Shown in pieces: positions 1 through 48,284 of a stretch of DNA of 64,000 nucleotides. The stretch is taken from IMG/VR virus record IMGVR_UViG_3300027917_000033, positions 1-64,000 of that record; one strand, 5' to 3'. The number at the start of each line of letters is the position of its first letter. Within the stretch, counting starts at the first letter, position 1. This stretch comes from a virus. A program made the translations under genes and the position numbers. The notes beneath the pieces were generated by a model. That model was given only the letters and a program-made list of their open reading frames with translations. It did no database searches and was not told the origin of the DNA.

Positions 1-63
1 CGTCCGGGGGGGGGAGGGGGGGGGACCACGGGGAAGGGGGGAGGAGGCCCGGTGGGGGGTGGG
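1..63. repeat. G-rich low-complexity run at window start
   Basis: Several G5-G9 runs; may be a contig-end artefact or a G-quadruplex-prone terminus. Confidence 0.5.
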
Positions 64-91
64 CGATTTAATCTTTCGCGAGAGGAATATT

Positions 92-287
<196 letters not shown>

Positions 288-453
288 AAAAGTATTTTAA
301 AAGTATTTCGGAGGAGTTGATGGCTAGCTTCATAGAGGAAATGGCACCAATGTTCAGCTGGTGGTCACTCGTTTGGTTCATTACCGTGGTGGTTCTATTC
401 ATTCCAATAATCGTGACACATATCCTAACACGTGACTCATATGAGCATGAAGA

Positions 454-816
454 TTGATGTACAAGACCTTCCTGACGAAGACCATCCTGACGATCAACCA
501 CGATCATTTAATGGGCGGCAACTTGGCGGCGTTATGCATGTATGAATTCTTAAAGAATGACGCCACAATCCACACCACCACCATATACGAGCATGAGCTC
601 AAGAAATCTCACTCGGTATTCCAGATATCGAAGGGTGGTAAGAATGCTGACATAGTAGTATATGAAGATGGCAGAGTATTGTGCAAAAAATGGCTTAGCA
701 GAGGCATCACTGGACTAAAGGACCTAAAGTTTTGTGACCAACTTGGTACGCTCAAGACTAATTTATACGACCCAGAATGCTTCGATAAGATAAAGAAGTT
801 CATCACTAATTCCTAG
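454..816 (+). CDS. DPxS-motif family protein
   Basis: YEFLKND helix, IVVYEDG strand, C-terminal NLYDPECFDKIKKFI. Confidence 0.75.
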   Translation: MMYKTFLTKTILTINHDHLMGGNLAALCMYEFLKNDATIHTTTIYEHELKKSHSVFQISKGGKNADIVVYEDGRVLCKKWLSRGITGLKDLKFCDQLGTLKTNLYDPECFDKIKKFITNS

Positions 817-847
817 AAAACCGATCCCCAGATAGCAAACATAACAT
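804..847 (+). promoter_or_regulatory. Duplicated intergenic element with candidate promoter (gcaaacataac)
   Basis: cactaattcctagaa + aaccgatccc(c/t)agatagcaaacataacata recurs, split, at 3806-3820 and 3976-4007. Confidence 0.6.
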
Positions 848-850
848 AGG

Positions 851-1225
851 ATGGCGATCATGAAATGTCCGCGAAAAGCTGTATCGTATTCATTTCCGTA
901 CGATACGCACACGTACACCCAGCACATCCAGGATTACCAGTGCATCATAAGTCGCTACCTTCAAGAAATCTTCCCCTCCCTCATAATAGACGACGAAACT
1001 TGGTTGGACGTTATTACCATCAGCCACAAGAGAGTGGACACTTGGAAGCAGCTCAGCGATGGTCCATTTGTGGATATTATAATACGGCGGAACGGTAGAG
1101 TGGTGGTAAAGTACGTGGGAGATACGGATCATGAGGATGCCCAAGTGGAAGTGGAAGAGGTTGAGGTCTCCTTGTATGATCCAGAATCGTTGCCAAGGAT
1201 CTCAGAAATTGTGAGTAAGTTATGA
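851..1225 (+). CDS. DPxS-motif family protein
   Basis: SRYLQE, IIIRRNG, SLYDPESLPRISEIV. Confidence 0.8.
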   Translation: MAIMKCPRKAVSYSFPYDTHTYTQHIQDYQCIISRYLQEIFPSLIIDDETWLDVITISHKRVDTWKQLSDGPFVDIIIRRNGRVVVKYVGDTDHEDAQVEVEEVEVSLYDPESLPRISEIVSKL

Positions 1226-1641
1226 AGCTTAAGAACCTGCACGAAGCGGTACACCATACGGGGCCTGACGACTACAACATGATCGATCTAATCGTGCAGT
1301 ATATCGAGAAGAATACGAAGGGGCTGCGTGCGCACATCGTGCCGTCCTCAATCATCGGGACCGGGGGTGAAAAAATAATCGTTTCCGCAAAGGGGGAAGA
1401 CTGGAAACATACCAATTATCCGCCATCGGAATATTTCCGTAAGCCCCGTACCTCTCGATTGCTGAGCACGGTCGTCCCTAAGACACCGTTCGTCTCTATC
1501 CTACTATATGGTGACGGCCAGGTATTCATGAATTATGTCTCGATGGTCGTCAGCCACAGTAAGACCGTCTCCATTTATGAACCGGATTCTTTACAGAGAA
1601 TCGTGAAATTCATTGTGCAGGCGTATGAATACCCTACATGA
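1222..1641 (+). CDS. DPxS-motif family protein with MKLxxLxE leader
   Basis: MKLKNLHE; SIYEPDSLQRIVKFI; ATGA overlap. Confidence 0.85.
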   Translation: MKLKNLHEAVHHTGPDDYNMIDLIVQYIEKNTKGLRAHIVPSSIIGTGGEKIIVSAKGEDWKHTNYPPSEYFRKPRTSRLLSTVVPKTPFVSILLYGDGQVFMNYVSMVVSHSKTVSIYEPDSLQRIVKFIVQAYEYPT

Positions 1642-1652
1642 GAGCGCTGGCC

Positions 1653-2009
1653 GTGAGACTTAAGACCTTATTTGAGAGCGCAGAGGCCTACGGTGATCTG
1701 CTCCTTGCCTATCTGAACGAAAGGGGTATAGAAGCCAAGACCCGTCACCCTAAAATGAGTCTTGGTAGCTCAGAATATAAAGACGGGACGATGAGGTGCA
1801 TGACTATTGTGGTCGATATGCCTCAGAGGCCAACTTCTGAGTTACCACCGATTATCAGGATTCGGACCTTTGAAGATGGCCACACATTGGCATGGTGGAT
1901 AGGGGGCCCACCTAGGCCCAAAAATTTGGGCCTTAAGACGAACATGCACGACCCGGATTCTTACCAGAAGATAGAAGCCTTCATTAGGGAGCATCTTGAT
2001 GAGGCTTAA
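1653..2009 (+). CDS. DPxS-motif family protein with MKLxxLxE leader (likely GTG start at 1653)
   Basis: (M)RLKTLFE; YLNERGI; NMHDPDSYQKIEAFI. Confidence 0.8.
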   Translation: MRLKTLFESAEAYGDLLLAYLNERGIEAKTRHPKMSLGSSEYKDGTMRCMTIVVDMPQRPTSELPPIIRIRTFEDGHTLAWWIGGPPRPKNLGLKTNMHDPDSYQKIEAFIREHLDEA

Positions 2010-2718
2010 ATCCCTACATGAGAGCGCTGGCCGTGAGGTGGCCAATCTCCTCAGGGCATACCTGGAGGAGAACGGGATAGAAGTATCTCAGTTTAGAGAA
2101 TGGTCTATCAACAGTTCTCTGGGGATACAGAGAGGAGATAGGTGGGCACGCATAATGGTGCACGACAGTGGTAGAATAGACATTTCGTTAACCAGGGACA
2201 GGGGACCGAGCTACTGGAAGTGGGGGACTCCGCATCTAGACAAGCATCGCGTATTCAACTTCCACGATCCTGACTCCTTCCAGAAAGTGGAAGCCTTAAT
2301 TAGGGATCACTTGGACGTAGATGCACCTGGGCCAAGATTGCCGAGCCTACCCATCCATGAGAGCCAAAGGGTAGCGGATCCGTATACGGTAGCCGAGCTA
2401 CTGGCGAAGTTTATACGCGATGCCAGGCTTCCTGGCTACCCTACTGTAGAGGAGCCCTACAAGAAGTATAAGTTCCGGAACCTTGTAGGTCACTGTGCGA
2501 CCATTATTGTCAGGCGGCTTGCGCCTTCTACATCTGGGTTCGACCAAATAGCCAACATAGTTGTACACGAGGATGGTGACCTCATATGGCGGGTAGGTTT
2601 GTGTATCTCGGGTTGTGAAAATCCGATAATTGGGGTCTCTCAATACAGGGACAATTTCCACCGCCCAGAGTCGTTTGAGAAGATAGTGAATACGCTACGG
2701 GATTGGTGGATGAGATAA
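1996..2718 (+). CDS. Two-domain DPxS-motif family protein
   Basis: MRLKSLHE; YLEENGI; NFHDPDSFQKV and NFHRPESFEKI. Confidence 0.85.
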   Translation: MMRLKSLHESAGREVANLLRAYLEENGIEVSQFREWSINSSLGIQRGDRWARIMVHDSGRIDISLTRDRGPSYWKWGTPHLDKHRVFNFHDPDSFQKVEALIRDHLDVDAPGPRLPSLPIHESQRVADPYTVAELLAKFIRDARLPGYPTVEEPYKKYKFRNLVGHCATIIVRRLAPSTSGFDQIANIVVHEDGDLIWRVGLCISGCENPIIGVSQYRDNFHRPESFEKIVNTLRDWWMR

Positions 2719-2786
2719 TATGTTCAAACTCGACGACATCCGAGTGGACTGATCTGGGCCACCCACCACTTGAAAGGGGGAGCACG

Positions 2787-2867
2787 ATGAAATGTCCAAT
2801 GGGAGGCTGTTCTCGATGCGGGATCATGTGTGCTGGCGGGAAGCCAAAACCAAGACCCACCAAATGA
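2787..2867 (+). CDS. Cys-rich micro-protein (26 aa)
   Basis: MKCPMGGCSRCGIMCAGGKPKPRPTK; gggggag RBS; ATGA-coupled to next ORF. Confidence 0.45.
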   Translation: MKCPMGGCSRCGIMCAGGKPKPRPTK

Positions 2868-2947
2868 ACTGCTTTGCAAGGATCCTGATGTCAGGGAAAC
2901 CTTGTAGGAAATATGCCAGAATCCGCGAAGTCGGAAACCAAAGATGA
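2864..2947 (+). CDS. Micro-protein (27 aa)
   Basis: MNCFARILMSGKPCRKYARIREVGNQR; ATGA overlaps on both sides. Confidence 0.4.
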   Translation: MNCFARILMSGKPCRKYARIREVGNQR

Positions 2948-3306
2948 AACTTAGTAACCTGTACGAGAGCGCGAGGGACTTCACGAGGATCATTTATGAG
3001 TTCCTGAATGGCACGGAGGTGGCCGGGTCGATGCAGCTGATAGGCGGTGAATTGGCCCATTTCGTCAGAATATACGACGATCATGAGGCTATTACAGACA
3101 TCAAGGCAAACAACGTCGGAGAAGCAACCATAAAAGTGCGCAGGAGGATTCCACGCATGAAGTGGCCTAATTATGAACGGGACACACTTGGCCGGTGGTG
3201 GGCCACTGGGGGTCTGGCATTGGTGTTCGAGGCGAAGATCGACCTGTACGAACCGGGGAGCCTGGAGAAACTATTGGATTACGTGAGATTCCGGAAGACC
3301 GTATGA
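2944..3306 (+). CDS. DPxS-motif family protein with MKLxxLxE leader
   Basis: MKLSNLYE; DLYEPGSLEKLLDYV. Confidence 0.85.
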   Translation: MKLSNLYESARDFTRIIYEFLNGTEVAGSMQLIGGELAHFVRIYDDHEAITDIKANNVGEATIKVRRRIPRMKWPNYERDTLGRWWATGGLALVFEAKIDLYEPGSLEKLLDYVRFRKTV

Positions 3307-3632
3307 AGCTGTACGACCCTGATGAGTTACTGTCTTTTCTCTATAATTGCAAAATTACTGCCGATGATTTGTTGCTTGAGAAGATACTGGGGGAGTATCT
3401 AACAGAGAACGGAATTGAGGTGTACATGGACGGTGGGCTAGTTACGGTAAAGAAGGGGGTCTCTACTCAATTCTGCTTCGATTGCCTTTGCCTTCCTGGT
3501 ATTATCAGAGTGTTCTACATTGACAAAGTAAACTGGTCCCGTAGTGGGTTTGTTGATGAAGAGTTCTCGATATATGATCCGGAAGAATTGGAAAGGATGA
3601 TTAAATTTATTAAGGATTATCCTCGATCTTGA
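3303..3632 (+). CDS. DPxS-motif family protein (start at ATG 3303)
   Basis: ATGA overlap; YLTENGI; SIYDPEELERMIKFI. Confidence 0.8.
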   Translation: MKLYDPDELLSFLYNCKITADDLLLEKILGEYLTENGIEVYMDGGLVTVKKGVSTQFCFDCLCLPGIIRVFYIDKVNWSRSGFVDEEFSIYDPEELERMIKFIKDYPRS

Positions 3633-3811
3633 CGGCGATGAACAGAAAGTATGCCTGGATGGCCAGAGAAACAGAGTGGTTCAAGAACATGACAGAACCA
3701 CTGGAGATATTGCGTAGGCCTTTGGGAAGCCCTCGAAGCGTACGAAAAGTATGGCCGTCTAGGTTCTCAATGCGAAATATCGCAAACCGAAAAATCCGAA
3801 AATACCACTAA
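3629..3811 (+). CDS. Small basic hypothetical protein
   Basis: Coupled ORF in the same operon; no motif. Confidence 0.5.
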   Translation: MTAMNRKYAWMARETEWFKNMTEPLEILRRPLGSPRSVRKVWPSRFSMRNIANRKIRKYH

Positions 3812-3841
3812 TTCCTAGAAGTATGGAATTCGAGGTACATA

Positions 3842-3994
3842 GTGGCAAAGAAGGCTAAGAAGCTTGGTAGCCTAAGTAAGCTGAAGATTCTTCGCGCTTA
3901 TAATCTAGCTACAGATTCACTTACAATCAAAAGCGCTAACAAGACCAAGCGTAAGGCATCTGCACGCCCTCGAAAAAAACCGATCCCTAGATAG
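3842..3994 (+). CDS. Small Lys/Arg-rich protein (50 aa)
   Basis: GTG start after gaggt RBS; MAKKAKKLGSLSKLKILRAYNL...RKKPIPR. Confidence 0.55.
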   Translation: MAKKAKKLGSLSKLKILRAYNLATDSLTIKSANKTKRKASARPRKKPIPR

Positions 3995-4006
3995 CAAACA
4001 TAACAT

Positions 4007-4234
4007 ATGGAAGTAGACCCGTCACAGTTAATTGTTTCCTACTTGCACGAGAACGGCATAAAAGCAACCAATAGACCGGTTCACCCAGGATTGATTGTAT
4101 TTGTTGCAAATGAGGGGTGGAGATACGTAGATGTGGAGGATCATTTAGTGACAATAGATAAGTTCAAGGGTGACCTACACGATCCCGCATGCCTACAGAG
4201 ATTAACAGAATACCTGTGGAAATTGGGTGCGTGA
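4007..4234 (+). CDS. DPxS-motif family protein (minimal, 75 aa)
   Basis: YLHENGI; DLHDPACLQRLTEYL. Confidence 0.8.
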   Translation: MEVDPSQLIVSYLHENGIKATNRPVHPGLIVFVANEGWRYVDVEDHLVTIDKFKGDLHDPACLQRLTEYLWKLGA

Positions 4235-4608
4235 AACTAAAGACACTGCGTGAAACGACCGATGACGAAACTAAAATAGTGGTAGATTCCATCGTTGAAT
4301 ATTTCGTGGACAATGGAATTTTTGCTTGGAATCGCCACTACATGAACGGGGAAAAGACAAATGAAATATGTGTGAATGCTGGTGAGGGGCTGAAGATAAT
4401 TATGCTCTACCTTTTCCCACATAGGATACTGATAGGGTTTAATGCTATGCATCTGTCTTACAAACAGAAGAAAATACTACAATACGTGACACCCAGATTC
4501 TTAGGTGAAGTCAATATCAACGATCCGGATTCTTATTCAAAATTGCTGAAGATAGTTAAGAAGGCACTAAATGAAGTTAAAGATCTTATACAATTAGGAA
4601 CAACATGA
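4231..4608 (+). CDS. DPxS-motif family protein with MKLxxLxE leader (GTG start)
   Basis: (M)KLKTLRE; YFVDNGI; NINDPDSYSKLLKIV. Confidence 0.8.
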   Translation: MKLKTLRETTDDETKIVVDSIVEYFVDNGIFAWNRHYMNGEKTNEICVNAGEGLKIIMLYLFPHRILIGFNAMHLSYKQKKILQYVTPRFLGEVNINDPDSYSKLLKIVKKALNEVKDLIQLGTT

Positions 4609-4967
4609 AATTAGAAAATTTATACGAACGGGAACATGATGATAGTGATGTTGTAACAGTTGCCAACGCACTCATGACGTACCTGTCTGATAATGGAATT
4701 ATGAGCGTCAAAATTGGACATCCATTCCCGAGTGTCTATGATGATGGTTCGTGGGCAAAAGTGCAACAAATAATGGTGGGTAATATAACGATAGTTGTGC
4801 GCAGTAACGGAGTGGTGCGTATATGGCCATCGACAAAAGATACAAGGTATTTAGCATTAGAAGTCGATATACACGATCCAGATTCTTTCCCAAAGGTACT
4901 TGAATTCGTCAAGGCACAAAGCAATGCACGTGAAGACGTAATCGGTAGACACCGTCTGGGCTATTAA
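4605..4967 (+). CDS. DPxS-motif family protein with MKLxxLxE leader
   Basis: MKLENLYE; YLSDNGI; DIHDPDSFPKVLEFV. Confidence 0.85.
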   Translation: MKLENLYEREHDDSDVVTVANALMTYLSDNGIMSVKIGHPFPSVYDDGSWAKVQQIMVGNITIVVRSNGVVRIWPSTKDTRYLALEVDIHDPDSFPKVLEFVKAQSNAREDVIGRHRLGY

Positions 4968-5445
4968 TGAAGGAGGTGTCCGTGTGCCCACATGATGATT
5001 TCGACATCTTGTATGAAGATGAATTCTATGAAATTGTAGTAAGAAAATGTAAGGACTGTGGGCAAATCGAAGTAAACGCGGAGTGGGCTGATGTCGAGTG
5101 GCTCAGGTCCATTATAGCTGATATAGATTGATAATATGAAGCTTAATACACTATACGAAACGCTGGGTTCGGATTACCCAAGAGAAACAGTTATACGAGC
5201 ATTGTATAAATACCTTGTTGATAATGGTATCCCACGGTCGAAGATTGACGATGGTTTGTCCGCAGTCCTATATATTGGCGGAAGTCCTGGATCTTCGCCA
5301 CGTCGTAATTATATCAGGATTATCGACCCTGAAGATCACATTATTCATGTGGCGTATCATGGGGATCGTCCTCATTATTTAGCATTAGAAGTCGATATAC
5401 ACGATCCAGATTCTTTCCCAAAGGTACTTGAATTCGTCAAGGCAC
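4848..5445 (+). repeat. Identical 70-bp direct repeat (4848-4917 and 5376-5445)
   Basis: Both copies encode YLALEVDIHDPDSFPKVLEFVKA in different genes. Confidence 0.95.
4982..5131 (+). CDS. Small zinc-ribbon-like protein (49 aa)
   Basis: aaggaggtg RBS; CPH...CKDCG. Confidence 0.6.
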   Translation: MCPHDDFDILYEDEFYEIVVRKCKDCGQIEVNAEWADVEWLRSIIADID

Positions 5446-5801
5446 GTAAAGACGTGGTCGGTGAGTCGTTATATGAAGATCACCCATTACTGATCAACTT
5501 GATTGCCCAATATTTATTGGATAACGGAATCAGAAGCGAGAAGCTGGGTTCTTTTGGTAGCGCCCAGCTAGTCGTACCACCTGTATCACGCGCATCTCTG
5601 AAGTCTCCAGGTTTGCCATCTCGCCAGCAGATCAGGATTTGGGCTTTTGACAATGGGTTAATAGATGCCATCCATTATACCAATCCCAACATCGCCTCAC
5701 CTTTCAGGGTGCATTTGAACGTTCATGATCCAGGTAGTCTGGAAAAGTTGAAAGACTTCATCATGAAATTCGAAGATGTTTGGACGGCAGCTATAGCGTG
5801 A
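5136..5801 (+). CDS. Two-domain DPxS-motif family protein
   Basis: MKLNTLYE; YLVDNGI and YLLDNGI; DIHDPDSF and NVHDPGSL. Confidence 0.85.
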   Translation: MKLNTLYETLGSDYPRETVIRALYKYLVDNGIPRSKIDDGLSAVLYIGGSPGSSPRRNYIRIIDPEDHIIHVAYHGDRPHYLALEVDIHDPDSFPKVLEFVKARKDVVGESLYEDHPLLINLIAQYLLDNGIRSEKLGSFGSAQLVVPPVSRASLKSPGLPSRQQIRIWAFDNGLIDAIHYTNPNIASPFRVHLNVHDPGSLEKLKDFIMKFEDVWTAAIA

Positions 5802-6178
5802 AGCTATACACGCAGCTAATCTATGAATTTCTAAAAGAAAACGGAATCCAGTCTTATCATACGACAATTCTTAACTATGATTGCATTTTCATAACGATGG
5901 ACCCCCACTTCGCGGCAGAAGATTACCCTGGGGGATTCTTCAGGACCAACGAGTATAGTGCGATAGGGATATGGCCAAATGACAACGGTGTGGTGACGAT
6001 GGAATATGAAAATCCAGATTATAAGCCAGCTAGGACACTTCCATATGGCGGTGTCCGCCACATACACAAGTGGTATCCAGACACGATGGATGTCAACATA
6101 CATGATCCTAACAGCCTACAGGAAATACTGGCATTCATCAAGAAGTACCCAGACACATTTGATAGAAACTATACATGA
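5798..6178 (+). CDS. DPxS-motif family protein (GTG start)
   Basis: FLKENGI; NIHDPNSLQEILAFI. Confidence 0.8.
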   Translation: MKLYTQLIYEFLKENGIQSYHTTILNYDCIFITMDPHFAAEDYPGGFFRTNEYSAIGIWPNDNGVVTMEYENPDYKPARTLPYGGVRHIHKWYPDTMDVNIHDPNSLQEILAFIKKYPDTFDRNYT

Positions 6179-6462
6179 AACTCAATAACTTGTCAGAATC
6201 AGACGCCGAAAGGGCAAACCTGACATTGAGGGTGATCTATATGTGGTTGTTAGAAAACGGATGGTATGCTAATGCCATCAATATGCATGATTGGGAGAAT
6301 GTAATATTGTTTGATAATATCAGCATAGAAATAGATTATGACGGGGATGTACAAGCTATAACTAATGAAGAACCACATCACAGTATATATATTGATTTAC
6401 ATGATCCACAATGTTTTGGCAAATTAGCTGAATTCCTTAATGAGTACGAGCCAAAGAAATGA
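6175..6462 (+). CDS. DPxS-motif family protein with MKLxxLxE leader
   Basis: MKLNNLSE; WLLENG; DLHDPQCFGKLAEFL. Confidence 0.85.
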   Translation: MKLNNLSESDAERANLTLRVIYMWLLENGWYANAINMHDWENVILFDNISIEIDYDGDVQAITNEEPHHSIYIDLHDPQCFGKLAEFLNEYEPKK

Positions 6463-6788
6463 ATATAATCGCCGGGCAACTAGATTTTAGGACAATTACG
6501 ACTTGCCTGAAAGAATATCTTAATGACAATGGCATCACGAGGGTAATAACAGTAGGTGAGAATCTGTTAACATGCGCAGACCTGACGATATCTCTTAACG
6601 GGTATAGCAAGGAGATACAAAACAGTTCTTGGGCAACCATAGAAATATTTGATGATGGAAAATATAAACTGGTCATAGTTGTACGCCGTAGAGACCGATA
6701 TAGTAATGAGATCAATTATGGCTCTGTTTATGATCCTGATAGCTTTCCTAAGATACTTGAATCTATAAAGAAGCGCTATGAAAATTAG
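6459..6788 (+). CDS. DPxS-motif family protein
   Basis: YLNDNGI; SVYDPDSFPKILESI. Confidence 0.85.
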   Translation: MNIIAGQLDFRTITTCLKEYLNDNGITRVITVGENLLTCADLTISLNGYSKEIQNSSWATIEIFDDGKYKLVIVVRRRDRYSNEINYGSVYDPDSFPKILESIKKRYEN

Positions 6789-7488
6789 CGAGTTATACGA
6801 ATCGACACTACTATGGAGTACTCCCAATAATCGGAGAAAGGTGAACGCTTGGGCCAAAGCTATCAGTGAATACCTCAAGGAAGAAGGTTTCCCGGCGCAC
6901 CGCCCATGTATAGATGAGATAGTGGTCGCCAAAGAATATGGAACCCACCCCCACACTAGAATAGTTGTAAACACAGATGGGCAAATAAGTGTGTGGCACG
7001 TGGGGCCTACCACAAAGCCATTTGAAGTGTCTATTTACGATCCGGACAGCTTCGAGATAATAAAAGAGTTCGTTAGTCGCTACAAATATGACCTTATAAT
7101 AAGTCGTGACGACTGGGTACGAGGACGAGGGCCTGTCGCCGAAGATACATGGCAGACAATGGCGGCAAGTTCAGAAGCGCTCGCCGCTTTAGCGTCATAC
7201 CTAGAAGATGATGGTTTTTATATAAAATCTCTTGTGCCATGGCGCACTATCACTGGCAGCAAAGGTCACTATCTCAGTGTGTATATGTCACCAGAAGAAA
7301 GCCGACGGGCAGAGTTTTTTAGACTAGTAGTAAGTTTACCAGATGATTCGCTAAAAGCAAGAATATACAGGTTGGGACCTGCTGCTCAACATTTATACGG
7401 AGAAATGTCAAACATGTTATTTGACTTGGCAGAACCGGGTTCATTCCGAAAAATAGCAGCAAGAATGCGCGAGCTGGCCGGGTATTAG
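6778..7488 (+). CDS. Two-domain DPxS-motif family protein
   Basis: MKISELYE; YLKEEGF and YLEDDGF; SIYDPDSF and DLAEPGSF. Confidence 0.85.
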   Translation: MKISELYESTLLWSTPNNRRKVNAWAKAISEYLKEEGFPAHRPCIDEIVVAKEYGTHPHTRIVVNTDGQISVWHVGPTTKPFEVSIYDPDSFEIIKEFVSRYKYDLIISRDDWVRGRGPVAEDTWQTMAASSEALAALASYLEDDGFYIKSLVPWRTITGSKGHYLSVYMSPEESRRAEFFRLVVSLPDDSLKARIYRLGPAAQHLYGEMSNMLFDLAEPGSFRKIAARMRELAGY

Positions 7489-7502
7489 TATTTTAAATCC
7501 TA

Positions 7503-7772
7503 ATGGGTTGTACTACTGCATCATGTATCCGTATGCTTGTAGAAGAACTGGGTTTACGGTGTTCAGAAATCCGTCCCCCCACGTTGCTTAACCCATGTCT
7601 ATATATCTATAAACGTGGCCAAGCTCCTATCATGTGCCACATAAGAGATAATGGCAACATTGACCTAAAGGCGACATATAGCAAAATAACCGTCAATATT
7701 TATGACCCAGAGTCGTTCCCTCGCATTAAAAAATTCATAGAAGCGGCGTTCTCCTCGCGCTACAAGTGGTGA
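7503..7772 (+). CDS. DPxS-motif family protein
   Basis: NIYDPESFPRIKKFI. Confidence 0.8.
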   Translation: MGCTTASCIRMLVEELGLRCSEIRPPTLLNPCLYIYKRGQAPIMCHIRDNGNIDLKATYSKITVNIYDPESFPRIKKFIEAAFSSRYKW

Positions 7773-7830
7773 TCCGATAAACACTTCATAGAAAAACTAA
7801 TCTCTGATAATAAACCAACAAAAATAGAGG

Positions 7831-8001
7831 ATGGTAAAATTTGGAAGAATCTTGTGCTTCTTTGGCTTGCACGATTGGGTGGAGAGCAATTGCCCGATCC
7901 GCAAAAAGCTTGGTAGAGGATATTTTGTATACTGGGAATGTACCAGATGCTCTACTAGGGCTATTTCGTCTGGTGACAATACCAAAGTTATTGAGCACTA
8001 A
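7831..8001 (+). CDS. Small Cys/His zinc-finger-like phage protein (56 aa)
   Basis: LCFFGLHDW...ECTRC; gagg RBS; caaaaatag upstream. Confidence 0.6.
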   Translation: MVKFGRILCFFGLHDWVESNCPIRKKLGRGYFVYWECTRCSTRAISSGDNTKVIEH

Positions 8002-8132
8002 CAATGATGTTACGCCAATATTCAGAAGAAGCAAATAAAGTTATTGAAGACGGATGCAAAACGAGGCCAGCGGCGAGGGCATGGAGTGCAAGATCGACAA
8101 GCATTCCCAAAAGCATTGAATTGGCTTAAGAG

Positions 8133-8489
8133 GTGGATCACAAAGCCGTAGGTTTGTATCATTGTATGTCGCTATTGCATGATTATCTTGGGGAAAATGG
8201 GATAAAATGTAATTTATTTACACCAAGGGACATAATTGTTAATTTCAGCAAGAATGCCTCAGCGGTGGTACAAATTAGTAATAATGGAAAGATTTCTATA
8301 CACTCCACACATACTAAACTAATCCAACACTCCACACATACTAAACTAATCCAACACGGTAAATCGCGTCCACCAATCTGCGGCACCACCACCAGTATCG
8401 TATTAGCAGAGTTTGATATATACGATCCGGGAAGTTTCCCAGAAGTGTCTGCACAATTAAAGCTAATGGCTAGCATAATAAATGATTGA
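8133..8489 (+). CDS. DPxS-motif family protein with internal 9-aa duplication
   Basis: YLGENGI; DIYDPGSFPEV; HSTHTKLIQ twice (8301-8354). Confidence 0.85.
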   Translation: MDHKAVGLYHCMSLLHDYLGENGIKCNLFTPRDIIVNFSKNASAVVQISNNGKISIHSTHTKLIQHSTHTKLIQHGKSRPPICGTTTSIVLAEFDIYDPGSFPEVSAQLKLMASIIND

Positions 8490-8796
8490 TGAAGTAGAAG
8501 CAGTATTGGAAAGCCTGTGTGCCTGGTTGGAAACGGAGGGGATTGCAGCTATTTATTCTAAAGTGTGGAAGCAGATCCACATAGTAGACGTCACAGGATC
8601 GGTGATTGTCGCAATAATTAGAATGAGTTACGGAGGCGACGGACCATGGCTGTCAATCAAAAATGATTCGGTAAGCTCGCTGATGCCTTTTGGCAACGCT
8701 CCATATACCAATCAGAGTATATCATTGTTTGAACCGGATGCTTTCGAAAAAGTGGCAAAATCATTAAAGATTTCTTTGAAATTTAATAGAAAATGA
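8482..8796 (+). CDS. DPxS-motif family protein
   Basis: WLETEGI; SLFEPDAFEKV. Confidence 0.8.
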   Translation: MIDEVEAVLESLCAWLETEGIAAIYSKVWKQIHIVDVTGSVIVAIIRMSYGGDGPWLSIKNDSVSSLMPFGNAPYTNQSISLFEPDAFEKVAKSLKISLKFNRK

Positions 8797-9062
8797 AAGC
8801 GTACGACAGAATTATATCAAAGTCAGAGAAATTAGCAATGGTAGGCCAGTATGTGGAAGACCATGGTTACGTTGTTGAAGATTCTCCAATTGAAGGTTAC
8901 ATAAAAGTTACCTACGAGGACTACGTTGTTGCCATGATAGGCGACAAAACTGGTTCAGAAGTGCTTGTACTGGGTGATGGAGCGAGAACGTTCAATATCG
9001 CCAATCCAAAATCGTTACAGCAAATAATTAAACATATTAGCAAACTCAAACGTAAACTGTGA
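8793..9062 (+). CDS. DPxS-motif family protein
   Basis: YVEDHGY; NIANPKSLQQII. Confidence 0.75.
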   Translation: MKAYDRIISKSEKLAMVGQYVEDHGYVVEDSPIEGYIKVTYEDYVVAMIGDKTGSEVLVLGDGARTFNIANPKSLQQIIKHISKLKRKL

Positions 9063-9439
9063 AATTAAAGCATTTACATGAAGACGTTTCCGACGTCCAG
9101 ATCGTAATACATACAATATATGAATACTTGAGTGAACGAACTGGCCGCCCAAGAGAAGTGCCATTGTATCCATCTAAACCAGATATTGAAGGTACAGGCA
9201 ATGCAACACTTAACGTTTATAGTCCTGAAGGTTGGCTAATCACAACATTTGTTGTGAAGGACGGGACTTTTGTCTATGCACGAGGGCCGTGGGGCAGCAG
9301 AGTTCCTGGGGGACATTTCAACCTAGCGGATCCAAATTCGTTAGAAGAAATGAGGGAATTATGCTATAATATATACAACGGAAAGAAAAAGCGATCTTAT
9401 GGAAGAACACGACTAAGGCCTAGGCAGGGAACTCCTTGA
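9059..9439 (+). CDS. DPxS-motif family protein with MKLxxLxE leader
   Basis: MKLKHLHE; NLADPNSLEEM. Confidence 0.85.
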   Translation: MKLKHLHEDVSDVQIVIHTIYEYLSERTGRPREVPLYPSKPDIEGTGNATLNVYSPEGWLITTFVVKDGTFVYARGPWGSRVPGGHFNLADPNSLEEMRELCYNIYNGKKKRSYGRTRLRPRQGTP

Positions 9440-9821
9440 TATATTTCCATCCGACTTCAGCTAACAATCCCTTATCAATAATTTCGTCCATTATATAAAA
9501 GCAATCTGGGTTCGCCAAACTGACTTTCACCATGCCCTTTACCTCTTGATATCTATCGCAATCATCAAAACAATCAAACGAAGTTCTTTCGAGCCTGTTG
9601 CATTCACTGCACGTGAACGATTGCGGTATACCTATCATTAATTCGACTTCGTGGTCTGCTAGGCGTGTAGTGTCAAATGACTTTTCTATGTTGATTTCTA
9701 TTTCGTTTTCTTCTGTTTGAACCCAGAATCTGACAGTTCTGTCATATTCACCATAAACTTCAACGAATATCCTTTTATTTGATTTTAACCACTGCCTCAA
9801 TATGTCTGCACTGCCATTCAT
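9420..9821 (-). CDS. Divergent DPxS-family protein with Cys insert
   Basis: WLKSN helix; CSEC...CFDDC; SLANPDCF. Confidence 0.6.
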   Translation of the reverse strand: MNGSADILRQWLKSNKRIFVEVYGEYDRTVRFWVQTEENEIEINIEKSFDTTRLADHEVELMIGIPQSFTCSECNRLERTSFDCFDDCDRYQEVKGMVKVSLANPDCFYIMDEIIDKGLLAEVGWKYIKEFPA

Positions 9822-10700: not shown

Positions 10701-10701
10701 C

Positions 10702-12579: not shown

Positions 12580-13462
12580 TGTTTGTCCAAAAAGGAGAAT
12601 AATCAACAGATGCTTTGTCTAGTAGCCGCCTTACTTCCTTTACCACCAAAGCATCTTGTAATGCCATAACGCTATTTGTGTACTGTTTTGTTACAACCCT
12701 CTTTTCTTCGCTCATTGTCCTTAGCTCATCGTTCAAAGCCCGCTGCCTGGCTTGAACAGCCCTGGTGGAAATACTATCAATCTTGCGAATTGACCTGACT
12801 TCTTGCTTTAACGATCTACCCTTGAGCCCTTTTTCAATAGCACGGTTTATTATTAATACCTGCTCTCTCATATTTGTAAGTTGTGTAATCGCCAGGGCGT
12901 CGTCTAAGCTAAATCTGCCATTACCGAGATGCTTCCTTAGGGCTGGCGTAGCGTGTTCTAATGCCCTCAATATACCTCTGACGGTCTTGACGCGCATATT
13001 GTATTTCTCTGCTATTTCATTGATAGAAAGCAAACCACGGTCAGCTTCCATCAGCTGCGCGACTTCGTATGCCGTCAACTGCTTCCTTGCTTCATTTTCA
13101 ATGAAAAACCTTTTGACCCTTTCCTTATTGTCTATCATTACGATTTCGGCTGGTATAGTTTCAAGACCGACTTCTTTGGCCGCACGCAGCCTCCTATGGC
13201 CCCACACCAACTGATATTTCCAGTCCTTACCCTTGCCACGCTTGCGAGCTTTCCCGCGTTTTCTCTCTTTAATTGGTGTAACCTGGATTCTTACCAACAC
13301 ACCATACTGTCTGATACTATCCTTCAATTGCTCAAAATCATCTTTTCTGGATTGGCGATCGAGGAATGGCTTGATTTCATCAATTGGTATATCGATTTCT
13401 TGAACCATATGATTCATCCATAATAGCAAATGAGATGCCTTCCATTTATATATTTGGCTCAA
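12560..13462 (-). CDS. ParB/Srx N-terminal domain protein with HTH
   Basis: LKDSIRQYGVL...LVWGHRRLRAA, ENEARKQL; start may be at 13408. Confidence 0.85.
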   Translation of the reverse strand: MSQIYKWKASHLLLWMNHMVQEIDIPIDEIKPFLDRQSRKDDFEQLKDSIRQYGVLVRIQVTPIKERKRGKARKRGKGKDWKYQLVWGHRRLRAAKEVGLETIPAEIVMIDNKERVKRFFIENEARKQLTAYEVAQLMEADRGLLSINEIAEKYNMRVKTVRGILRALEHATPALRKHLGNGRFSLDDALAITQLTNMREQVLIINRAIEKGLKGRSLKQEVRSIRKIDSISTRAVQARQRALNDELRTMSEEKRVVTKQYTNSVMALQDALVVKEVRRLLDKASVDYSPFWTNNENQKH

Positions 13463-13542
13463 AGTTTAAAGACGATATATCTTCTTGGCAAGAGAATACA
13501 ACAGAAACCATTCTTTGGTACCAAGGACGTATTTTAATTATT

Positions 13543-13935
13543 ATGGATGAATTATTACTAATACAAGATGGAATTAATCATAACTTGGAGCGCGGAATAA
13601 TAATTAATTGGGAGTCTCCACCATATATAATATGGAATATGAGAAGATGCGCAGGAAGTGTAATAATTCGCATACCACACATAATTATTATAGATGACTA
13701 TCATGGACTAAATAATGGAAAATTTGACATTCACGAACCAGAATCACTACAGAAGTCTGCAGCACTCATATCACTAATATGTAAAAAACATAGGGCTAGG
13801 ATCAAGCACGAGAGAATCAAACAGAGGAAATTGGACCGCAAATGGATAGAACCCCAGAGTAAGGCGATGAAGAGCATCATGAGAGCGGAGAAATTCAACA
13901 ATAAAAATCTTATACACCCAAAGCGAGGAAGATAG
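13543..13935 (+). CDS. Hypothetical protein with DPxS-like motif
   Basis: FDIHEPESLQK; likely start MDELL after gtattttaa motif. Confidence 0.6.
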   Translation: MDELLLIQDGINHNLERGIIINWESPPYIIWNMRRCAGSVIIRIPHIIIIDDYHGLNNGKFDIHEPESLQKSAALISLICKKHRARIKHERIKQRKLDRKWIEPQSKAMKSIMRAEKFNNKNLIHPKRGR

Positions 13936-44387: not shown

Positions 44388-44876
44388 ATGAAACTAAAAT
44401 CATTGTATGAATCTGAGTCTGATGAATCTCGCATAAAACGACTTCGGGATTCTGTAACAATACCATCATCTAAAAATATTTATAATGACATGATCGGAGT
44501 GTCGGAAAGACTGGCGATAGTTGGGCAATATTTAAGTGATTGGGGCTTTCCAGTTGACCCAGTAAGTAAACCATCAACTGGTCATCCCCCATTCATACGG
44601 GTATGGAATAATGAACACAAAACCGGTGTCGTTGCAATATCTGTTAGAGCATTGGTATCGGGTTATAAAGTATTTGGGATTCCTACAATTGGCCCATCTG
44701 AAGTGTTTATAGAAAAACTTGGTAGCAATATGCGAAGAAAGTCAGCGAATCTGTGGGCCAAAAAAGTCGATTTGGCTAAACCTAATGCACTGCAAACAAT
44801 AAAACAAATAGTCGAAGAAATGGTTTTTCTGCCAAACCAAAGACGTGATCATTTAGTGGACCCAGATGAATCCTGA
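44388..44876 (+). CDS. DPxS-family protein with MKLxxLxE leader
   Basis: MKLKSLYE; ERLAIVGQYLSDWGF resembles 8793 ORF; DLAKPNALQTI. Confidence 0.8.
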   Translation: MKLKSLYESESDESRIKRLRDSVTIPSSKNIYNDMIGVSERLAIVGQYLSDWGFPVDPVSKPSTGHPPFIRVWNNEHKTGVVAISVRALVSGYKVFGIPTIGPSEVFIEKLGSNMRRKSANLWAKKVDLAKPNALQTIKQIVEEMVFLPNQRRDHLVDPDES

Positions 44877-45390
44877 AGAAATAGCCAAGTTGATCACGGA
44901 AGATCCCGACGTCTTCGAAGACTGGGATGAAGCTGATATAGGATTGGTGGAAACGATGAATCCAGAGGATATAGCCAAGTTGATCACGGAAGATCCGGAC
45001 ACTCCGGACATTCTGGATCTCGTAAGTCAAAAATTATTCGAATTAGGCTATAGCCACGAGAACAGGTGGGGCGGATTATTGATTCGCCCTGAGCAGCTGA
45101 ACATCGAAGGCGTAGAAGACTGCGAAGGGCTTTATATCGAAGATAAAGGCCAAGCCAACATTAACATGATCATGATAGACAAGAACGCGCCTGAGGCTTT
45201 CGGTCCTGGAGACTTCACGCCATGGTGGTCGGGGACCTTCCTGAAGAACATCTGGCGTCGACCAACAGGTTACTTTGACTATTGGTATCCATTGAATTTG
45301 GCTGATCCCGAAGAATATGAAGAATTTGAAGAAATTCTTAAATGGTCGATGGAAGATTGGAGAGGCTATTGGAGACTGGGTCAACTGTGA
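44866..45390 (+). CDS. Protein with two ITEDPD leaders and a DPxS-like domain
   Basis: MNPEEIAKLITEDPD, MNPEDIAKLITEDPD; NLADPEEY. Confidence 0.85.
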   Translation: MNPEEIAKLITEDPDVFEDWDEADIGLVETMNPEDIAKLITEDPDTPDILDLVSQKLFELGYSHENRWGGLLIRPEQLNIEGVEDCEGLYIEDKGQANINMIMIDKNAPEAFGPGDFTPWWSGTFLKNIWRRPTGYFDYWYPLNLADPEEYEEFEEILKWSMEDWRGYWRLGQL

Positions 45391-48247: not shown

Positions 48248-48284
48248 AGGCAAAGATAATTTATGAATACATTGTGTGCGAAAC

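What the first reader, a model, noticed from the sequence alone, without database searches (positions are those of the whole stretch)
454..9439. Tandem array of 20 genes / 23 domains of one unrecognised small-protein family
Seen: nearly every + strand ORF here has a helix ending YLx[ED]NG[IF], several short strands (often IxVxxDG), and a closing [DNS][ILM]x[DE]PxS[FL]xK[IV]xxF[IV]; the middles are highly divergent. About 7 more members lie at 9420, 13543, 44388, 44866, 45387, 48285 and 49045. I do not recognise the family. Inference: a conserved alpha-beta(n)-alpha scaffold with variable surface, expanded as a binder or anti-defence repertoire, analogous to the polymorphic internal-protein locus of T-even phages.
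Basis: partly seen in the sequence, partly recalled or inferred. Interest (0 to 1): 0.85.

Follow-up and report, generated by a model that had tools for sequence, protein, structure and literature searches.

The report
Tagged small-protein gene array, huge phage
An uncultivated giant phage from marine sediment devotes more than thirty genes, twenty of them in one row, to an unnamed small protein with a conserved core and a variable surface; these are probably binders aimed at host proteins, but no function has been shown.

Summary
Window 454-9439 holds 20 co-directional genes (23 domains) of one ~100-residue family. Each domain is recognised by an HMM built from the other 22 (23 of 23). Eleven more genes on the same 87.8-kb phage fragment match at E<=1e-3.

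The family matches nothing in Pfam, PHROGs, PADLOC, NCBIfam or PDB, and was not found in INPHARED phages, IMG/VR or GTDB genomes. A profile search of 1.84 billion proteins found 115 hits, 22 of them the window's own. The rest are singleton metagenome proteins that also cluster on their contigs.

Conserved positions are core, turn and helix-start residues. Loops, length and charge vary. Paralogues are old: 8 of 23 have 40-55% counterparts elsewhere.

Half of the members carry a detachable 8-residue leader (M-K-L-K-T-L-H-E). It is kept at protein level and ends in the L-x-E rule of T4-type head proteases. Other members carry a second leader shared with unrelated proteins.

My best reading (confidence about 0.4) is a repertoire of non-enzymatic binders of host proteins, with the tagged ones possibly packed into the capsid and injected. 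Function, fold and packaging are not shown here.

This scan has noted leader-tagged paralogue arrays before on other phage DNA, with other families and tags.

The parts
454..816 (+). family gene 1 (no leader; likely start ATG 457, overlapping the stop of a 45-aa hydrophobic ORF at 320-457)
   Evidence: family HMM E 3.4e-15; leave-one-out E 5.7e-11
851..1225 (+). family gene 2 (no leader; preceded by the 32-nt repeat 817-848)
   Evidence: E 6.8e-15; leave-one-out 8e-11; repeat
1222..1641 (+). family gene 3, leader MKLKNLHE
   Evidence: E 5.1e-18; leave-one-out 3e-11; leader
1638..2009 (+). family gene 4, leader MRLKTLFE at GTG 1653; the 26 nt at 1632-1657 are identical to 2012-2037
   Evidence: E 5.6e-24; leave-one-out 4.3e-12
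1996..2718 (+). family gene 5, two domains (fusion); leader MRLKSLHE at ATG 1999; a degenerate leader remains in the linker
   Evidence: domains 1.5e-26 and 5.1e-12; leave-one-out 9e-20 and 0.001
2944..3306 (+). family gene 6, leader MKLSNLYE
   Evidence: E 6.4e-14; leave-one-out 1.2e-7
3303..3632 (+). family gene 7 (ORF opens at 3195; likely start ATG 3303, 4-nt overlap)
   Evidence: E 1.2e-11; leave-one-out 9.6e-8
4007..4234 (+). family gene 8 (75 aa, no leader; preceded by the 32-nt repeat 3976-4007)
   Evidence: E 4e-11; leave-one-out 6.3e-8
4231..4608 (+). family gene 9, leader MKLKTLRE at GTG 4231 (ORF opens at 4189)
   Evidence: E 3.6e-16; leave-one-out 9.8e-11
4605..4967 (+). family gene 10, leader MKLENLYE; its 3' 70 nt (4848-4917) are identical to 5376-5445
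   Evidence: E 2.1e-23; leave-one-out 1.6e-20
4967..5131 (+). 54-aa Cys-containing ORF inside the array; not a family member
   Evidence: no HMM hit; no Pfam hit
5136..5801 (+). family gene 11, two domains (fusion), leader MKLNTLYE; the second domain's counterparts elsewhere are free-standing genes with the full leader (P0016, P0116)
   Evidence: domains 9.6e-24 and 1.8e-20; leave-one-out 6.3e-19 and 2.1e-14
5780..6178 (+). family gene 12 (no leader; counterpart P0013 at 45% identity has it)
   Evidence: E 5e-24; leave-one-out 1.5e-15
6175..6462 (+). family gene 13, leader MKLNNLSE
   Evidence: E 9.4e-21; leave-one-out 1.4e-13; Atlas model pTM 0.72
6459..6788 (+). family gene 14 (no leader)
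   Evidence: E 1.3e-20; leave-one-out 5.7e-13
6778..7488 (+). family gene 15, two domains (fusion), leader MKISELYE; the second domain's counterpart P0079 is a free-standing gene with the leader
   Evidence: domains 1.1e-24 and 1.6e-12; leave-one-out 3.7e-15 and 4.2e-5
7503..7772 (+). family gene 16 (no leader)
   Evidence: E 4.9e-16; leave-one-out 3.3e-11
8133..8489 (+). family gene 17 (no leader; holds an exact 27-nt tandem duplication at 8300-8353)
   Evidence: E 2.8e-16; leave-one-out 2.9e-9
8482..8796 (+). family gene 18 (no leader)
   Evidence: E 5.1e-9; leave-one-out 3.2e-5
8793..9062 (+). family gene 19 (no leader)
   Evidence: E 1.9e-9; leave-one-out 4.4e-4
9059..9439 (+). family gene 20, leader MKLKHLHE (GTG start), basic C-terminal tail shared with counterpart P0046
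   Evidence: E 6.5e-16; leave-one-out 1.2e-7
9420..9821 (-). diverged family member on the opposite strand
   Evidence: E 1.1e-4; 0.0029 with the array-only HMM
13384..13935 (+). diverged family member (domain in residues ~69-143)
   Evidence: E 4e-6; 1.2e-4
44388..44876 (+). family member with leader MKLKSLYE and a long linker
   Evidence: E 3.8e-7; 9.7e-7
44866..45390 (+). possible member (weak) with two copies of the second leader MNPxDIAxLITEDPD
   Evidence: E 0.018; 0.0089
45342..46229 (+). family domain behind the second leader, followed by a C-terminal part with an HExxH motif
   Evidence: E 3.2e-5; no Pfam hit
48276..48692 (+). family member behind the second leader
   Evidence: E 3.8e-10 with the array-only HMM
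49045..49425 (+). family member with leader MKLPVLYE
   Evidence: E 9.4e-11 with the array-only HMM

Best explanation
The region is an operon-like row of 20 genes (23 domains) for a previously unnamed ~100-residue alpha/beta domain. The domain has an N-terminal helix (..Y-L-x-E-N-G-I), several strands with a D-G hairpin, and a last strand running into a C-terminal helix that opens with D-P-x-S-F. At least 11 more copies are scattered over the same 87.8-kb fragment of an uncultivated huge phage from marine sediment.

Only core, turn and helix-start positions are conserved. Loops, length and net charge differ from copy to copy, and no catalytic-looking set of residues is invariant. I therefore read the family as a non-enzymatic scaffold that offers many different surfaces. 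That would make it a repertoire of specific binders, most likely inhibitors or modulators of host proteins such as defence nucleases and other take-over targets.

Half of the copies carry a detachable 8-residue N-terminal leader (consensus M-K-L-K-T-L-H-E) set off from the domain by a linker of variable length. A few copies carry instead a second leader (M-N-P-x-D-I-A-x-L-I-T-E-D-P-D) that also sits on unrelated proteins. Both leaders contain the L/I-x-E rule after which T4-type head proteases cut. My working model is that tagged copies are loaded into the prohead, trimmed, and injected with the DNA. Untagged copies would act after they are expressed.

Shown here: the family, the array, the leaders and their selection at protein level, counterparts and clustering in other metagenomes, gene fusions, and recent recombination.

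Inferred: the binder role (about 0.5), host-directed or anti-defence use (about 0.4), and capsid loading of tagged copies (about 0.3).
For: Family and array:
- Leave-one-out HMM scores 23 of 23 domains. The contig holds 31 genes at E<=1e-3 against a best shuffled score of 0.18.
- 14 of 20 junctions overlap, 9 of them by 4 nt.

Scaffold with variable surface:
- Information content peaks at hydrophobic, Gly and Pro positions. The only invariant residue is Pro. The His in the closing motif is kept in only 47%.
- Insertion hot spots lie between the conserved blocks.
- pI ranges from 4.4 to 9.3.
- The Atlas's own models are compact, with pTM 0.68 and 0.72.

No enzyme or known family matches.

The repertoire is old and maintained:
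- 8 of 23 domains have foreign counterparts at 40-55% identity over at least 104 residues, higher than to almost any in-array paralogue.
- Own copies are not clustered on the tree: 23 label changes against a shuffled mean of 22.7.

The locus is active:
- a 70-nt exact repeat lies between two paralogues that share only 45% protein identity;
- a 26-nt exact repeat lies at two gene starts;
- a 27-nt tandem duplication lies inside one gene;
- three fusions have free-standing, tagged counterparts elsewhere.

Leader:
- 13 strict matches on the contig, all on the + strand, 12 of them in family genes. Codons for L3, L6 and E8 vary synonymously.
- 45 of 90 foreign members have it, with L6 in 45/45 and E8 in 40/45.
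- A variable linker follows it.
- It also heads two non-family ORFs, 52821 and 20146-20523 on the minus strand.

Second leader: it heads 8 consecutive genes, including a cREC_REC domain protein (PF20274, 3e-19). It also ends a ferritin-like protein.

Precedent (passages read):
- T4 gp21 cuts after L/I-x-E. T4's 10-19-residue leaders load small, divergent internal proteins that are injected (PMC9026906). Each of Ip1-3 blocks a different GmrSD nuclease (PMC12373910).
- SPN3US paralogues gp53 and gp54 keep identical 15-residue N-termini although the rest has diverged (PMC5694885).

The phage carries an adenylosuccinate-synthetase-like gene that hits the PurZ PHROG. It may therefore have modified DNA, the usual target of such nucleases (inference).
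Against: - No relative has a known function, and no expression or virion data exist.
- Only 10 of 20 array genes carry the leader.
- The L/I-x-E rule is short. It occurs in the first 10 residues of 5 of 65 ORFs of at least 150 aa on this contig, and in the first 20 residues of 15 of 65.
- No head gene or Peptidase_S77 protease is on the fragment (the record is about 24% complete). The leader therefore cannot be tied to a protease.
- Unlike T4 internal proteins, the members are homologous to each other and mostly acidic to neutral: median pI 6.2 for the window's 23 domains and 5.7 for 115 members.
- The first leader is nearly confined to this family (12 of 13 strict matches). It could therefore be a family-specific structural or oligomerisation element.
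- Counterparts at 40-55% identity in other phages point to slow, conserved evolution rather than a fast arms race.
- The tree is poorly resolved: 11 of 112 inner branches have support of at least 95.
Confidence: 0.4

Rival explanations
1. The proteins are cytoplasmic host take-over or regulatory proteins made after infection, and none is packaged. On this reading the 8-residue leader is a family-specific element, for example an extra strand, an oligomerisation or docking peptide, or a stability signal, and not a capsid address.
For: - Half of the genes lack the leader.
- The leader is almost restricted to this family, 12 of 13 strict matches.
- The proteins are not basic.
- The array lies beside replication, ParB-like and ClpP-like genes, with no head genes within 87.8 kb.
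Against: - A linker of 0-27 residues separates the leader from the domain, and counterparts differ in having it. It is therefore dispensable for the fold.
- The same domain also occurs behind a different leader that is shared with unrelated proteins.
- Two non-family ORFs carry the first leader.
Confidence: 0.3
2. The proteins are internal head proteins with a structural role, such as inner-body, scaffold-like or DNA-organising proteins, as in the paralogue families of phiKZ-like phages. On this reading they are not inhibitors of host proteins.
For: - SPN3US head paralogues gp53 and gp54 share identical N-terminal propeptides with Glu-ending cut motifs, while the rest has diverged (PMC5694885, passages read).
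- The leader here ends in L-x-E.
- The copy number is large and the paralogues are old and conserved.
Against: - Half of the copies are untagged.
- Charge is mostly acidic to neutral and highly variable, which is unlike DNA-associated proteins.
- The domains are small (about 100 aa) and their loops vary strongly.
- No head genes lie nearby.
Confidence: 0.12
3. The array is a poly-immunity or antitoxin-like locus. On this reading each small protein neutralises a different toxin or abortive-infection effector, as in the tandem immunity-gene arrays of polymorphic toxin systems (recalled, not read here).
For: The proteins are small, divergent alpha/beta proteins in a long tandem array with variable surfaces.
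Against: - No member matches any Pfam immunity family: no family is hit by more than 2 of 115 members.
- No toxin-like gene was seen in or beside the array.
- The leaders are not a feature of immunity proteins.
- The family was not found in 185,579 bacterial and archaeal species genomes by motif scan.
Confidence: 0.06
4. The array is largely neutral or selfish duplication without a current function, or it is over-called ORFs.
For: No expression data exist. All foreign relatives are singleton metagenome proteins.
Against: - All 20 frames are open, and 14 of 20 junctions overlap.
- Motif residues are kept while codons vary.
- Counterparts at 40-55% identity with intact frames occur in other samples.
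- The array itself holds no pseudogene remnants.
Confidence: 0.03

Closest known systems
T4 internal proteins Ip1/Ip2/Ip3 with their capsid targeting sequence, and the polymorphic ip loci of T-even phages (PMC3012670, PMC9026906, PMC12373910; passages read)
   Same: Both are small (8-20 kDa) dispensable-looking proteins in variable loci. Both have a short N-terminal leader that is better conserved than the body and ends in an aliphatic-x-Glu motif. IPI is a small alpha/beta protein. In T4 several members each block a different variant of one defence nuclease family, which is the logic proposed here.
   Different: T4 internal proteins are not homologous to each other, are basic, and all carry the leader. 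Here more than 30 proteins share one fold, are mostly acidic to neutral, and only about half are tagged. There is no sequence similarity to any PHROG family. Neither the protease nor packaging can be checked on this fragment.
Paralogous processed head/ejection proteins of giant phages (SPN3US gp53/gp54, phiKZ inner-body proteins; PMC5694885, passages read)
   Same: Both are paralogue families in a very large phage. In both, the N-termini are kept nearly identical while the rest diverges, and the leader contains a Glu-ending cut motif.
   Different: Those propeptides are 15 to more than 100 residues long and the proteins are much larger. Their motif is A/S-x-E rather than L-x-E. They are demonstrated virion components, and nothing of the kind is shown here.
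Unnamed ~100-residue viral and bacterial hypothetical-protein clusters in the ESM Atlas; DUF1815 (PF08844)
   Same: These are the nearest predicted structures: TM 0.50-0.63 over 82-88 residues for the unnamed clusters. DUF1815 appears weakly in both look-ups, with TM 0.44 and feature score 0.78.
   Different: They have no known function, and no sequence-level match. The scores are in the range that the tool itself calls leads only.
Tandem immunity-gene arrays of polymorphic toxin systems
   Same: Both are long tandem rows of small, highly divergent alpha/beta proteins that act by specific binding.
   Different: Here there is no toxin partner and no match to immunity families. The context is a phage, and the proteins carry N-terminal leaders.

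Membership tests
T4-type internal proteins / capsid-targeting-sequence cargo | Short N-terminal propeptide (10-19 residues in T4) shared by otherwise divergent small proteins | tested here: inconclusive
   An 8-residue leader heads 10 of 20 array genes, plus 44388 and 49045, and two non-family ORFs. 45 of 90 foreign members have it. It is shorter than in T4 and absent from half of the genes.
T4-type internal proteins / capsid-targeting-sequence cargo | Leader ends in the head-protease motif L/I-x-E | tested here: met
   L6 is kept in 45/45 and E8 in 40/45 foreign leaders. All 13 strict matches on the contig carry the motif by definition of the pattern. The motif is weak on its own: it occurs in the first 10 residues of 5 of 65 long ORFs.
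T4-type internal proteins / capsid-targeting-sequence cargo | Genome encodes a gp21-type (Peptidase_S77) prohead protease | tested here: inconclusive
   PF03420 was not found on the 87.8-kb record. The record is about 24% complete and holds no head genes.
T4-type internal proteins / capsid-targeting-sequence cargo | Proteins present in virions in processed form and ejected into the host | not testable with these tools
   The phage is uncultivated and no proteome is available.
T4-type internal proteins / capsid-targeting-sequence cargo | Basic, DNA-associated proteins | tested here: not met
   pI ranges from 4.4 to 9.3 with median 6.2 for the 23 domains. Of 115 members, 70% are below pI 6.5 and 15% above pI 8.
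Any Pfam, PHROG, NCBIfam or PADLOC family | Significant HMM match shared by the members | tested here: not met
   Of 115 members scanned one by one, no Pfam family was hit by more than 2 (best E 0.0073). No PHROG, PADLOC or NCBIfam family was hit by more than 1.
Proteins of solved structure (PDB) | Profile-to-sequence match | tested here: not met
   With the 115-member profile the best E is 0.11. With the 25-member profile the only hit below 0.01 was a designed WD-type repeat protein, matched through summed D-G hairpins with no single significant stretch.
Polymorphic-toxin immunity proteins | Match to an immunity family and adjacency to a toxin gene | tested here: not met
   There is no Pfam immunity family among the hits. 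No toxin-like gene was recognised among the neighbours scanned. Adjacency was judged only from those scans.
DUF1815 (PF08844) | Sequence or fold match | tested here: inconclusive
   Atlas structure TM is 0.44 and feature score 0.78, both below the tool's own reliability marks. There is no hmmscan hit.

The most novel reading that the evidence does not exclude
A huge marine-sediment phage uses two interchangeable peptide address labels. One is the N-terminal M-K-L-K-T-L-H-E. The other is M-N-P-x-D-I-A-x-L-I-T-E-D-P-D, which also sits at the C-terminus of a ferritin-like protein. On this reading the labels load a cargo set into its capsid for injection. The bulk of that cargo would be a family of more than 30 members built on one small scaffold with diversified surfaces. 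That would be a phage-encoded, germline 'antibody-like' repertoire of inhibitors, each aimed at a different host defence or take-over target.
Probability: 0.2. Interest if true: 0.85.

Novelty: new variant of a known kind. Interest (0 to 1): 0.62.

Why it matters
If the reading holds, this would be one of the largest single-fold accessory families seen in one phage: at least 31 genes on an 88-kb fragment. It would show that huge phages can build counter-defence or take-over repertoires by diversifying one scaffold, rather than by collecting unrelated inhibitors as T4 does.

The family gives a ready-made natural library of about 115 divergent versions of one ~100-residue domain. That library could be used to find new host targets or defence systems of sediment bacteria, and as a scaffold for binder engineering.

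The detachable leaders, one shared with enzymes, make a long-standing question directly testable: how large phages choose what proteins to pack and inject. This would need the head protease and capsid genes of this phage, or a cultivable relative, to be in hand.

If instead the proteins prove to be ordinary cytoplasmic early proteins, the finding is still a new domain family worth a database entry.

Tried and rejected
Known-family explanations were rejected after scans of Pfam, PHROGs, PADLOC, NCBIfam and PDB. The one PDB hit at E 4e-5 (designed Ika8 protein) was rejected. It has no significant single stretch and comes from adding up six D-G-x-h hairpins, and it vanished with the larger profile.

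Three of the 115 representative hits were set aside as repeat-driven chance matches before all counts of 'foreign' members: P0057 (552 aa), P0086 (352 aa) and P0112 (597 aa). One search used 93 foreign proteins because P0116-P0118 had been added.

Searches for relatives with context found little.
- INPHARED tblastn with the 221-aa two-domain protein gave none at E<=1.
- IMG/VR motif scans gave none confirmed.
- GTDB species genomes gave none confirmed.
- JGI metagenomes gave one 1,393-nt contig.
- Fused forms of at least 260 aa were not found, which the tool itself calls weak evidence.

A nucleotide-level reason for the leader (recombination site or translation signal) was considered. It was judged insufficient because Leu and Glu codons vary synonymously. 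The A-rich second and fourth codons may still help initiation.

A Ser-His-Asp catalytic reading of the closing motif was rejected because the His is kept in only 47% of members.

The ClpP-like gene next to the array (10092-10805 minus strand) was considered as the leader's protease or as a degradation partner. Nothing tests this, and no unfoldase was recognised.

No RNA holder is listed for the array, so nothing can be said on expression. Laying contigs of three runs gave no ends, joints or variants within the array.

Sigma-70-type promoter and terminator scans were at shuffle level: 29 promoter-like sites against a mean of 24.1, and 11 terminator-like sites against a mean of 7.4. Three earlier-findings look-ups gave nothing or an error. 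Two paper searches for paralogue arrays in large phages gave nothing relevant. A third gave only PMC12373910. These searches are the only basis for saying I found no description of this family in print. Supplementary files were not consulted (closed).

Full report
WHAT THE WINDOW IS. The window is the first 64 kb of an 87,842-nt IMG/VR virus record classed as linear, with a CheckV completeness of 24%. That implies a genome of several hundred kb (inference).
- The fragment encodes a split PolIII-alpha-type DNA polymerase, a DnaB-like helicase, SbcC/SbcD-like proteins and glycosyltransferases.
- It also encodes an adenylosuccinate-synthetase-like protein that hits the PurZ PHROG.
- The polymerase's best match among 50,697 phage records is a 595-kb uncultured phage, at 29.7% identity.
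- No tRNA gene was found.
- The DNA occurs in marine-sediment metagenomes of two studies. In one sample the Logan contigs cover the array without a single difference. In the other study two short exact pieces are held.
- The first ~310 nt are G-rich, with a GACGGGCAGAC-type tandem repeat. Their depth comes from unrelated contigs, so they are probably an assembly artefact.

Between 454 and 9439 there are 21 + strand ORFs. Twenty belong to one family, and three of those (1996, 5136, 6778) hold two domains each, giving 23 domains.
- An HMM built from any 22 domains recognises the 23rd in 23 of 23 cases at E<=1e-3, for a database of the contig's 657 ORFs. The worst scores are 0.001 and 4.4e-4, and the best is 1.6e-20.
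- Shuffled ORFs reach 0.077 at best.
- By plain BLASTP, 54 of 253 domain pairs reach E<=1e-3. 21 of 23 domains form one connected group. The other two (8482, 9059) are linked by the HMM only.
- Matches cover almost the whole profile.
- The array is tight: 8,067 of 8,986 nt lie in the 21 ORFs. 14 of 20 junctions overlap, 9 of them by the 4-nt ATGA/GTGA type. There are three larger gaps of 225, 374 and 360 nt.
- A six-frame search found no decayed copies in those gaps.

MEMBERS OUTSIDE THE ARRAY. The HMM built from the array alone finds ten further genes at E<=1e-3. These include 49045 (9e-11), 48276 (4e-10), 86879 minus strand (4e-8), 72795 minus strand (5e-8) and 44388 (1e-6). With the wider 115-row profile, eleven genes outside the array score E<=1e-3 and three more score 0.008-0.03. 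This gives 31 to 34 genes on 87.8 kb.

THE FAMILY IS UNRECOGNISED AND RARE.
- Ten members scanned singly, and then all 115 members scanned one by one, gave no shared hit. No Pfam family is matched by more than 2 of 115. No PHROG, PADLOC or NCBIfam family is matched by more than 1.
- Profile searches of PDB sequences gave nothing credible. The best E with the large profile is 0.11. An earlier hit to a designed repeat protein came from summed D-G hairpins.
- A profile search of 1.84 billion representative proteins gave 115 hits at E<=1e-3. 22 are the window's own, 3 are long repeat proteins that I set aside, and 90 are small proteins of 75-206 aa with the same motifs.
- The ten that I looked up are all singleton clusters, from ENA, NCBI, Logan or JGI assemblies, without names.
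- No relative was confirmed in INPHARED, IMG/VR or 185,579 species genomes.
- The foreign members also sit together. One 1,393-nt JGI contig holds four in a row, three of them complete. Several share the same longest-contig length: 7,188 nt for four proteins, and 43,418, 6,261, 1,644, 1,292 and 975 nt for two each. I take these to be shared contigs (inference).
- Twelve of 93 foreign proteins end in [YHND]-E-A. This is what an 11-nt overlap with a following ATGA(A/G)GCTTAA start produces, as at 1999-2009 in the window. These genes too are therefore probably followed by a tagged member (inference).

ANATOMY. Across 115 sequences the information-rich columns fall into four blocks.
- An optional N-terminal octapeptide.
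- A helix-like block [LA]-[IL]-x-[EA]-Y-L-x-E-N-G-I (Y 71%, L 87%, G 85%).
- Alternating hydrophobic runs around a [DN]-G turn (G 75%).
- V-[DN]-[LI]-[HY]-D-P-D-S-[FL]-x-K-I-L-x-F-[IV]-K (P 100%, S 87%).

Insertions concentrate at four places between these blocks, with means of 1.9-4.4 residues and maxima of 12-27. Net charge runs from -12 to +5 and pI from 4.4 to 9.3. The only invariant residue is the proline, and the motif's histidine is kept in 47%. The conserved set therefore looks like core, turns and a helix start, not an active site (inference).

The ESM Atlas holds its own models of two members, with pTM 0.68 and 0.72. Their nearest neighbours are unnamed ~100-residue viral and bacterial clusters (TM 0.50-0.63) and, weakly, DUF1815.

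THE LEADERS. Ten of the 20 array genes, plus 44388 and 49045, start with M-[KR]-[LI]-x-x-L-x-E.
- A strict scan of all start codons in six frames gave 13 matches, all on the + strand. Twelve are in family genes and one is in the unrelated 52821 ORF.
- A near-match heads the unrelated 20146-20523 ORF on the minus strand.
- The Leu and Glu codons differ from gene to gene, so the peptide is what is conserved, not the DNA.
- Among foreign members 45 of 90 have the leader. Its consensus is M-K-L-K-T-L-H-E (L6 45/45, E8 40/45, K2 42/45). This is far better kept than the 8% mean column identity of the family alignment.
- A linker of variable length follows it.
- Counterparts differ in having it. 5780 lacks it, while P0013 (45% identical) has it. 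The second domains of 5136 and 6778 correspond to free-standing tagged genes elsewhere (P0116/P0016 at 54-55%, P0079 at 52%), and a decayed leader remains in the linkers of 1996 and 5136. The leader is thus a detachable module.

Three members (44866, 45342, 48276) and foreign P0106 carry instead the peptide M-N-P-x-D-I-A-x-L-I-T-E-D-P-D.
- It heads eight consecutive genes at 44866-49048. Among them are a cREC_REC domain protein (PF20274, 3e-19) and a protein with an HExxH motif.
- It also closes a ferritin-like protein, 49700-50083 (Rubrerythrin, 2.6e-7).
- I found both leaders, before reading this scan's notes. The ferritin lead came from a note, and I then checked it.

EVOLUTION OF THE LOCUS.
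- Eight of 23 domains have foreign counterparts at 40-55% identity over at least 104 residues, and a ninth at 39.6%. Within the array only two pairs exceed 35%: 4605/5136a at 45% and 1638/1996a at 38%.
- On a tree of 115 rows the window's 25 copies are scattered. They need 23 label changes, the shuffled mean is 22.7, and 336 of 500 shuffles are as low. Support is poor, with 11 of 112 inner branches starred.
- Most duplications therefore predate the split from the phages in other samples. The repertoire is old and maintained.
- The locus is also still active. A 70-nt exact repeat joins the 3' ends of 4605 and 5136a, which are only 45% identical as proteins. A 26-nt exact repeat sits at the starts of 1638 and 1996. 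A 27-nt tandem duplication lies in 8133.
- On the one foreign contig that could be read, only one of four genes has a clear counterpart in the window (55%). Its neighbours match at no more than 42% over short stretches.

HOW IT MOST LIKELY WORKS. The pieces are: a small stable scaffold with no conserved catalytic residues; surfaces that differ in loops, length and charge; many old paralogues kept side by side; and occasional fusion to other modules. Together they fit a repertoire of specific binders best. In a lytic huge phage the obvious targets are host proteins.

The leaders add a second layer. T4 loads small, mutually unrelated internal proteins into the prohead through a 10-19-residue N-terminal sequence. 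That sequence is then cut off after L/I-x-E by gp21. The proteins are injected, and Ip1, Ip2 and Ip3 each block a different GmrSD nuclease (PMC9026906, PMC3012670, PMC12373910; passages read). In giant phage SPN3US the head paralogues gp53 and gp54 keep identical 15-residue N-termini with Glu-ending motifs (PMC5694885; passages read). Both leaders here contain L/I-x-E.

I therefore propose that tagged members are capsid cargo and untagged ones act from within the infected cell. This step is inferred. The motif is short: it occurs in the first 10 residues of 5 of 65 long ORFs and in the first 20 residues of 15 of 65. No head gene or S77 protease is on the fragment. The proteins are not basic. 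Half are untagged.

The rivals are, in order:
- cytoplasmic early proteins with a family-specific N-terminal element;
- structural inner-head proteins;
- an immunity-like array;
- functionless duplicates.

COMPARISON AND NOVELTY. The family is not a member of any described family that I could test. It works, at most, like the T-even internal-protein system or the processed head paralogues of giant phages. It differs in being one homologous fold expanded to more than 30 copies, in charge, and in partial tagging. This scan has noted leader-tagged paralogue arrays in other large phages (61 notes hold the search words). Those are unchecked AI notes on other families and are not evidence here. I found no paper describing this family. 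I rate it a new variant of a known kind, with interest 0.62.

There are no expression or virion data. Supplementary files of papers were not seen.

Noticed in passing
window 1-310: The contig's 5' end is G-rich, followed by an 8/12-nt tandem repeat (GACGGGCAGAC type, 155-226) and flanked by a 32-nt direct repeat (92-123 and 261-292). Depth there comes from many unrelated contigs, and the phage's own Logan contig starts at 311. It is probably an assembly artefact rather than a genome end.
   Followed up: partly
window 320-457: A 45-aa ORF with one strongly hydrophobic stretch lies directly upstream of the first family gene. It is preceded by GAGGAG, and its stop overlaps the ATG at 457.
   Followed up: partly
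window 817-848 and 3976-4007: A 32-nt direct repeat (31 of 32 identical) lies immediately upstream of two untagged family genes (851 and 4007). Its 18-nt core occurs nowhere else in the window, against 0.12 expected by chance. It is a candidate internal promoter, processing or regulatory site.
   Followed up: partly
window 4848-4917 and 5376-5445; 1632-1657 and 2012-2037; 8300-8353: Exact 70-nt and 26-nt repeats lie between paralogues, and there is an exact 27-nt tandem duplication inside gene 8133. These are signs of recent recombination or gene conversion in the array.
   Followed up: partly
window 2703-2867, 4967-5131, 7831-8001: Three 54-56-aa Cys-containing ORFs lie in or between array genes. 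They have no significant family match; 7831-8001 has a faint Antiterm hit at E 0.0044, below the cut-off.
   Followed up: partly
window 44866-50083: A second portable peptide (MNPxDIAxLITEDPD) heads eight consecutive genes. Their bodies include a cREC_REC domain (47816-48247, PF20274 3e-19) and an HExxH protein. The same peptide sits at the C-terminus of a ferritin/rubrerythrin-like protein (49700-50083).
   Followed up: partly
window 52821-53177 (+) and 20146-20523 (-): Two proteins outside the family start with the first leader (MRLCDLHE and MKLDLIYE). Neither has a Pfam hit.
   Followed up: partly
window 10092-10805 (-), 10702-11697 (-), 11698-13462 (-): A ClpP-family protease with a Lys/Pro-rich N-terminal extension (PF00574, 4.6e-26), a metallophosphoesterase and two ParB_N-domain proteins lie right after the array on the other strand.
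   Followed up: partly
window 62324-63580 (+), 61028-61651 (+): An adenylosuccinate-synthetase-like gene hits the PurZ PHROG (phrog_1211, 4.7e-31; PF00709, 4.7e-15). It lies next to a weak nucleoside deoxyribosyltransferase-like gene. The phage may have a 2-aminoadenine genome; this was not examined further.
   Followed up: no
window 35464-37827 (-) and 38942-40333 (-): The PolIII-alpha-type DNA polymerase appears split into two ORFs that match successive parts of phrog_405, with small genes between them.
   Followed up: no
window 42815-43618 (-): A sulfotransferase-family gene (PF13469, 1.2e-16) lies in this phage.
   Followed up: no
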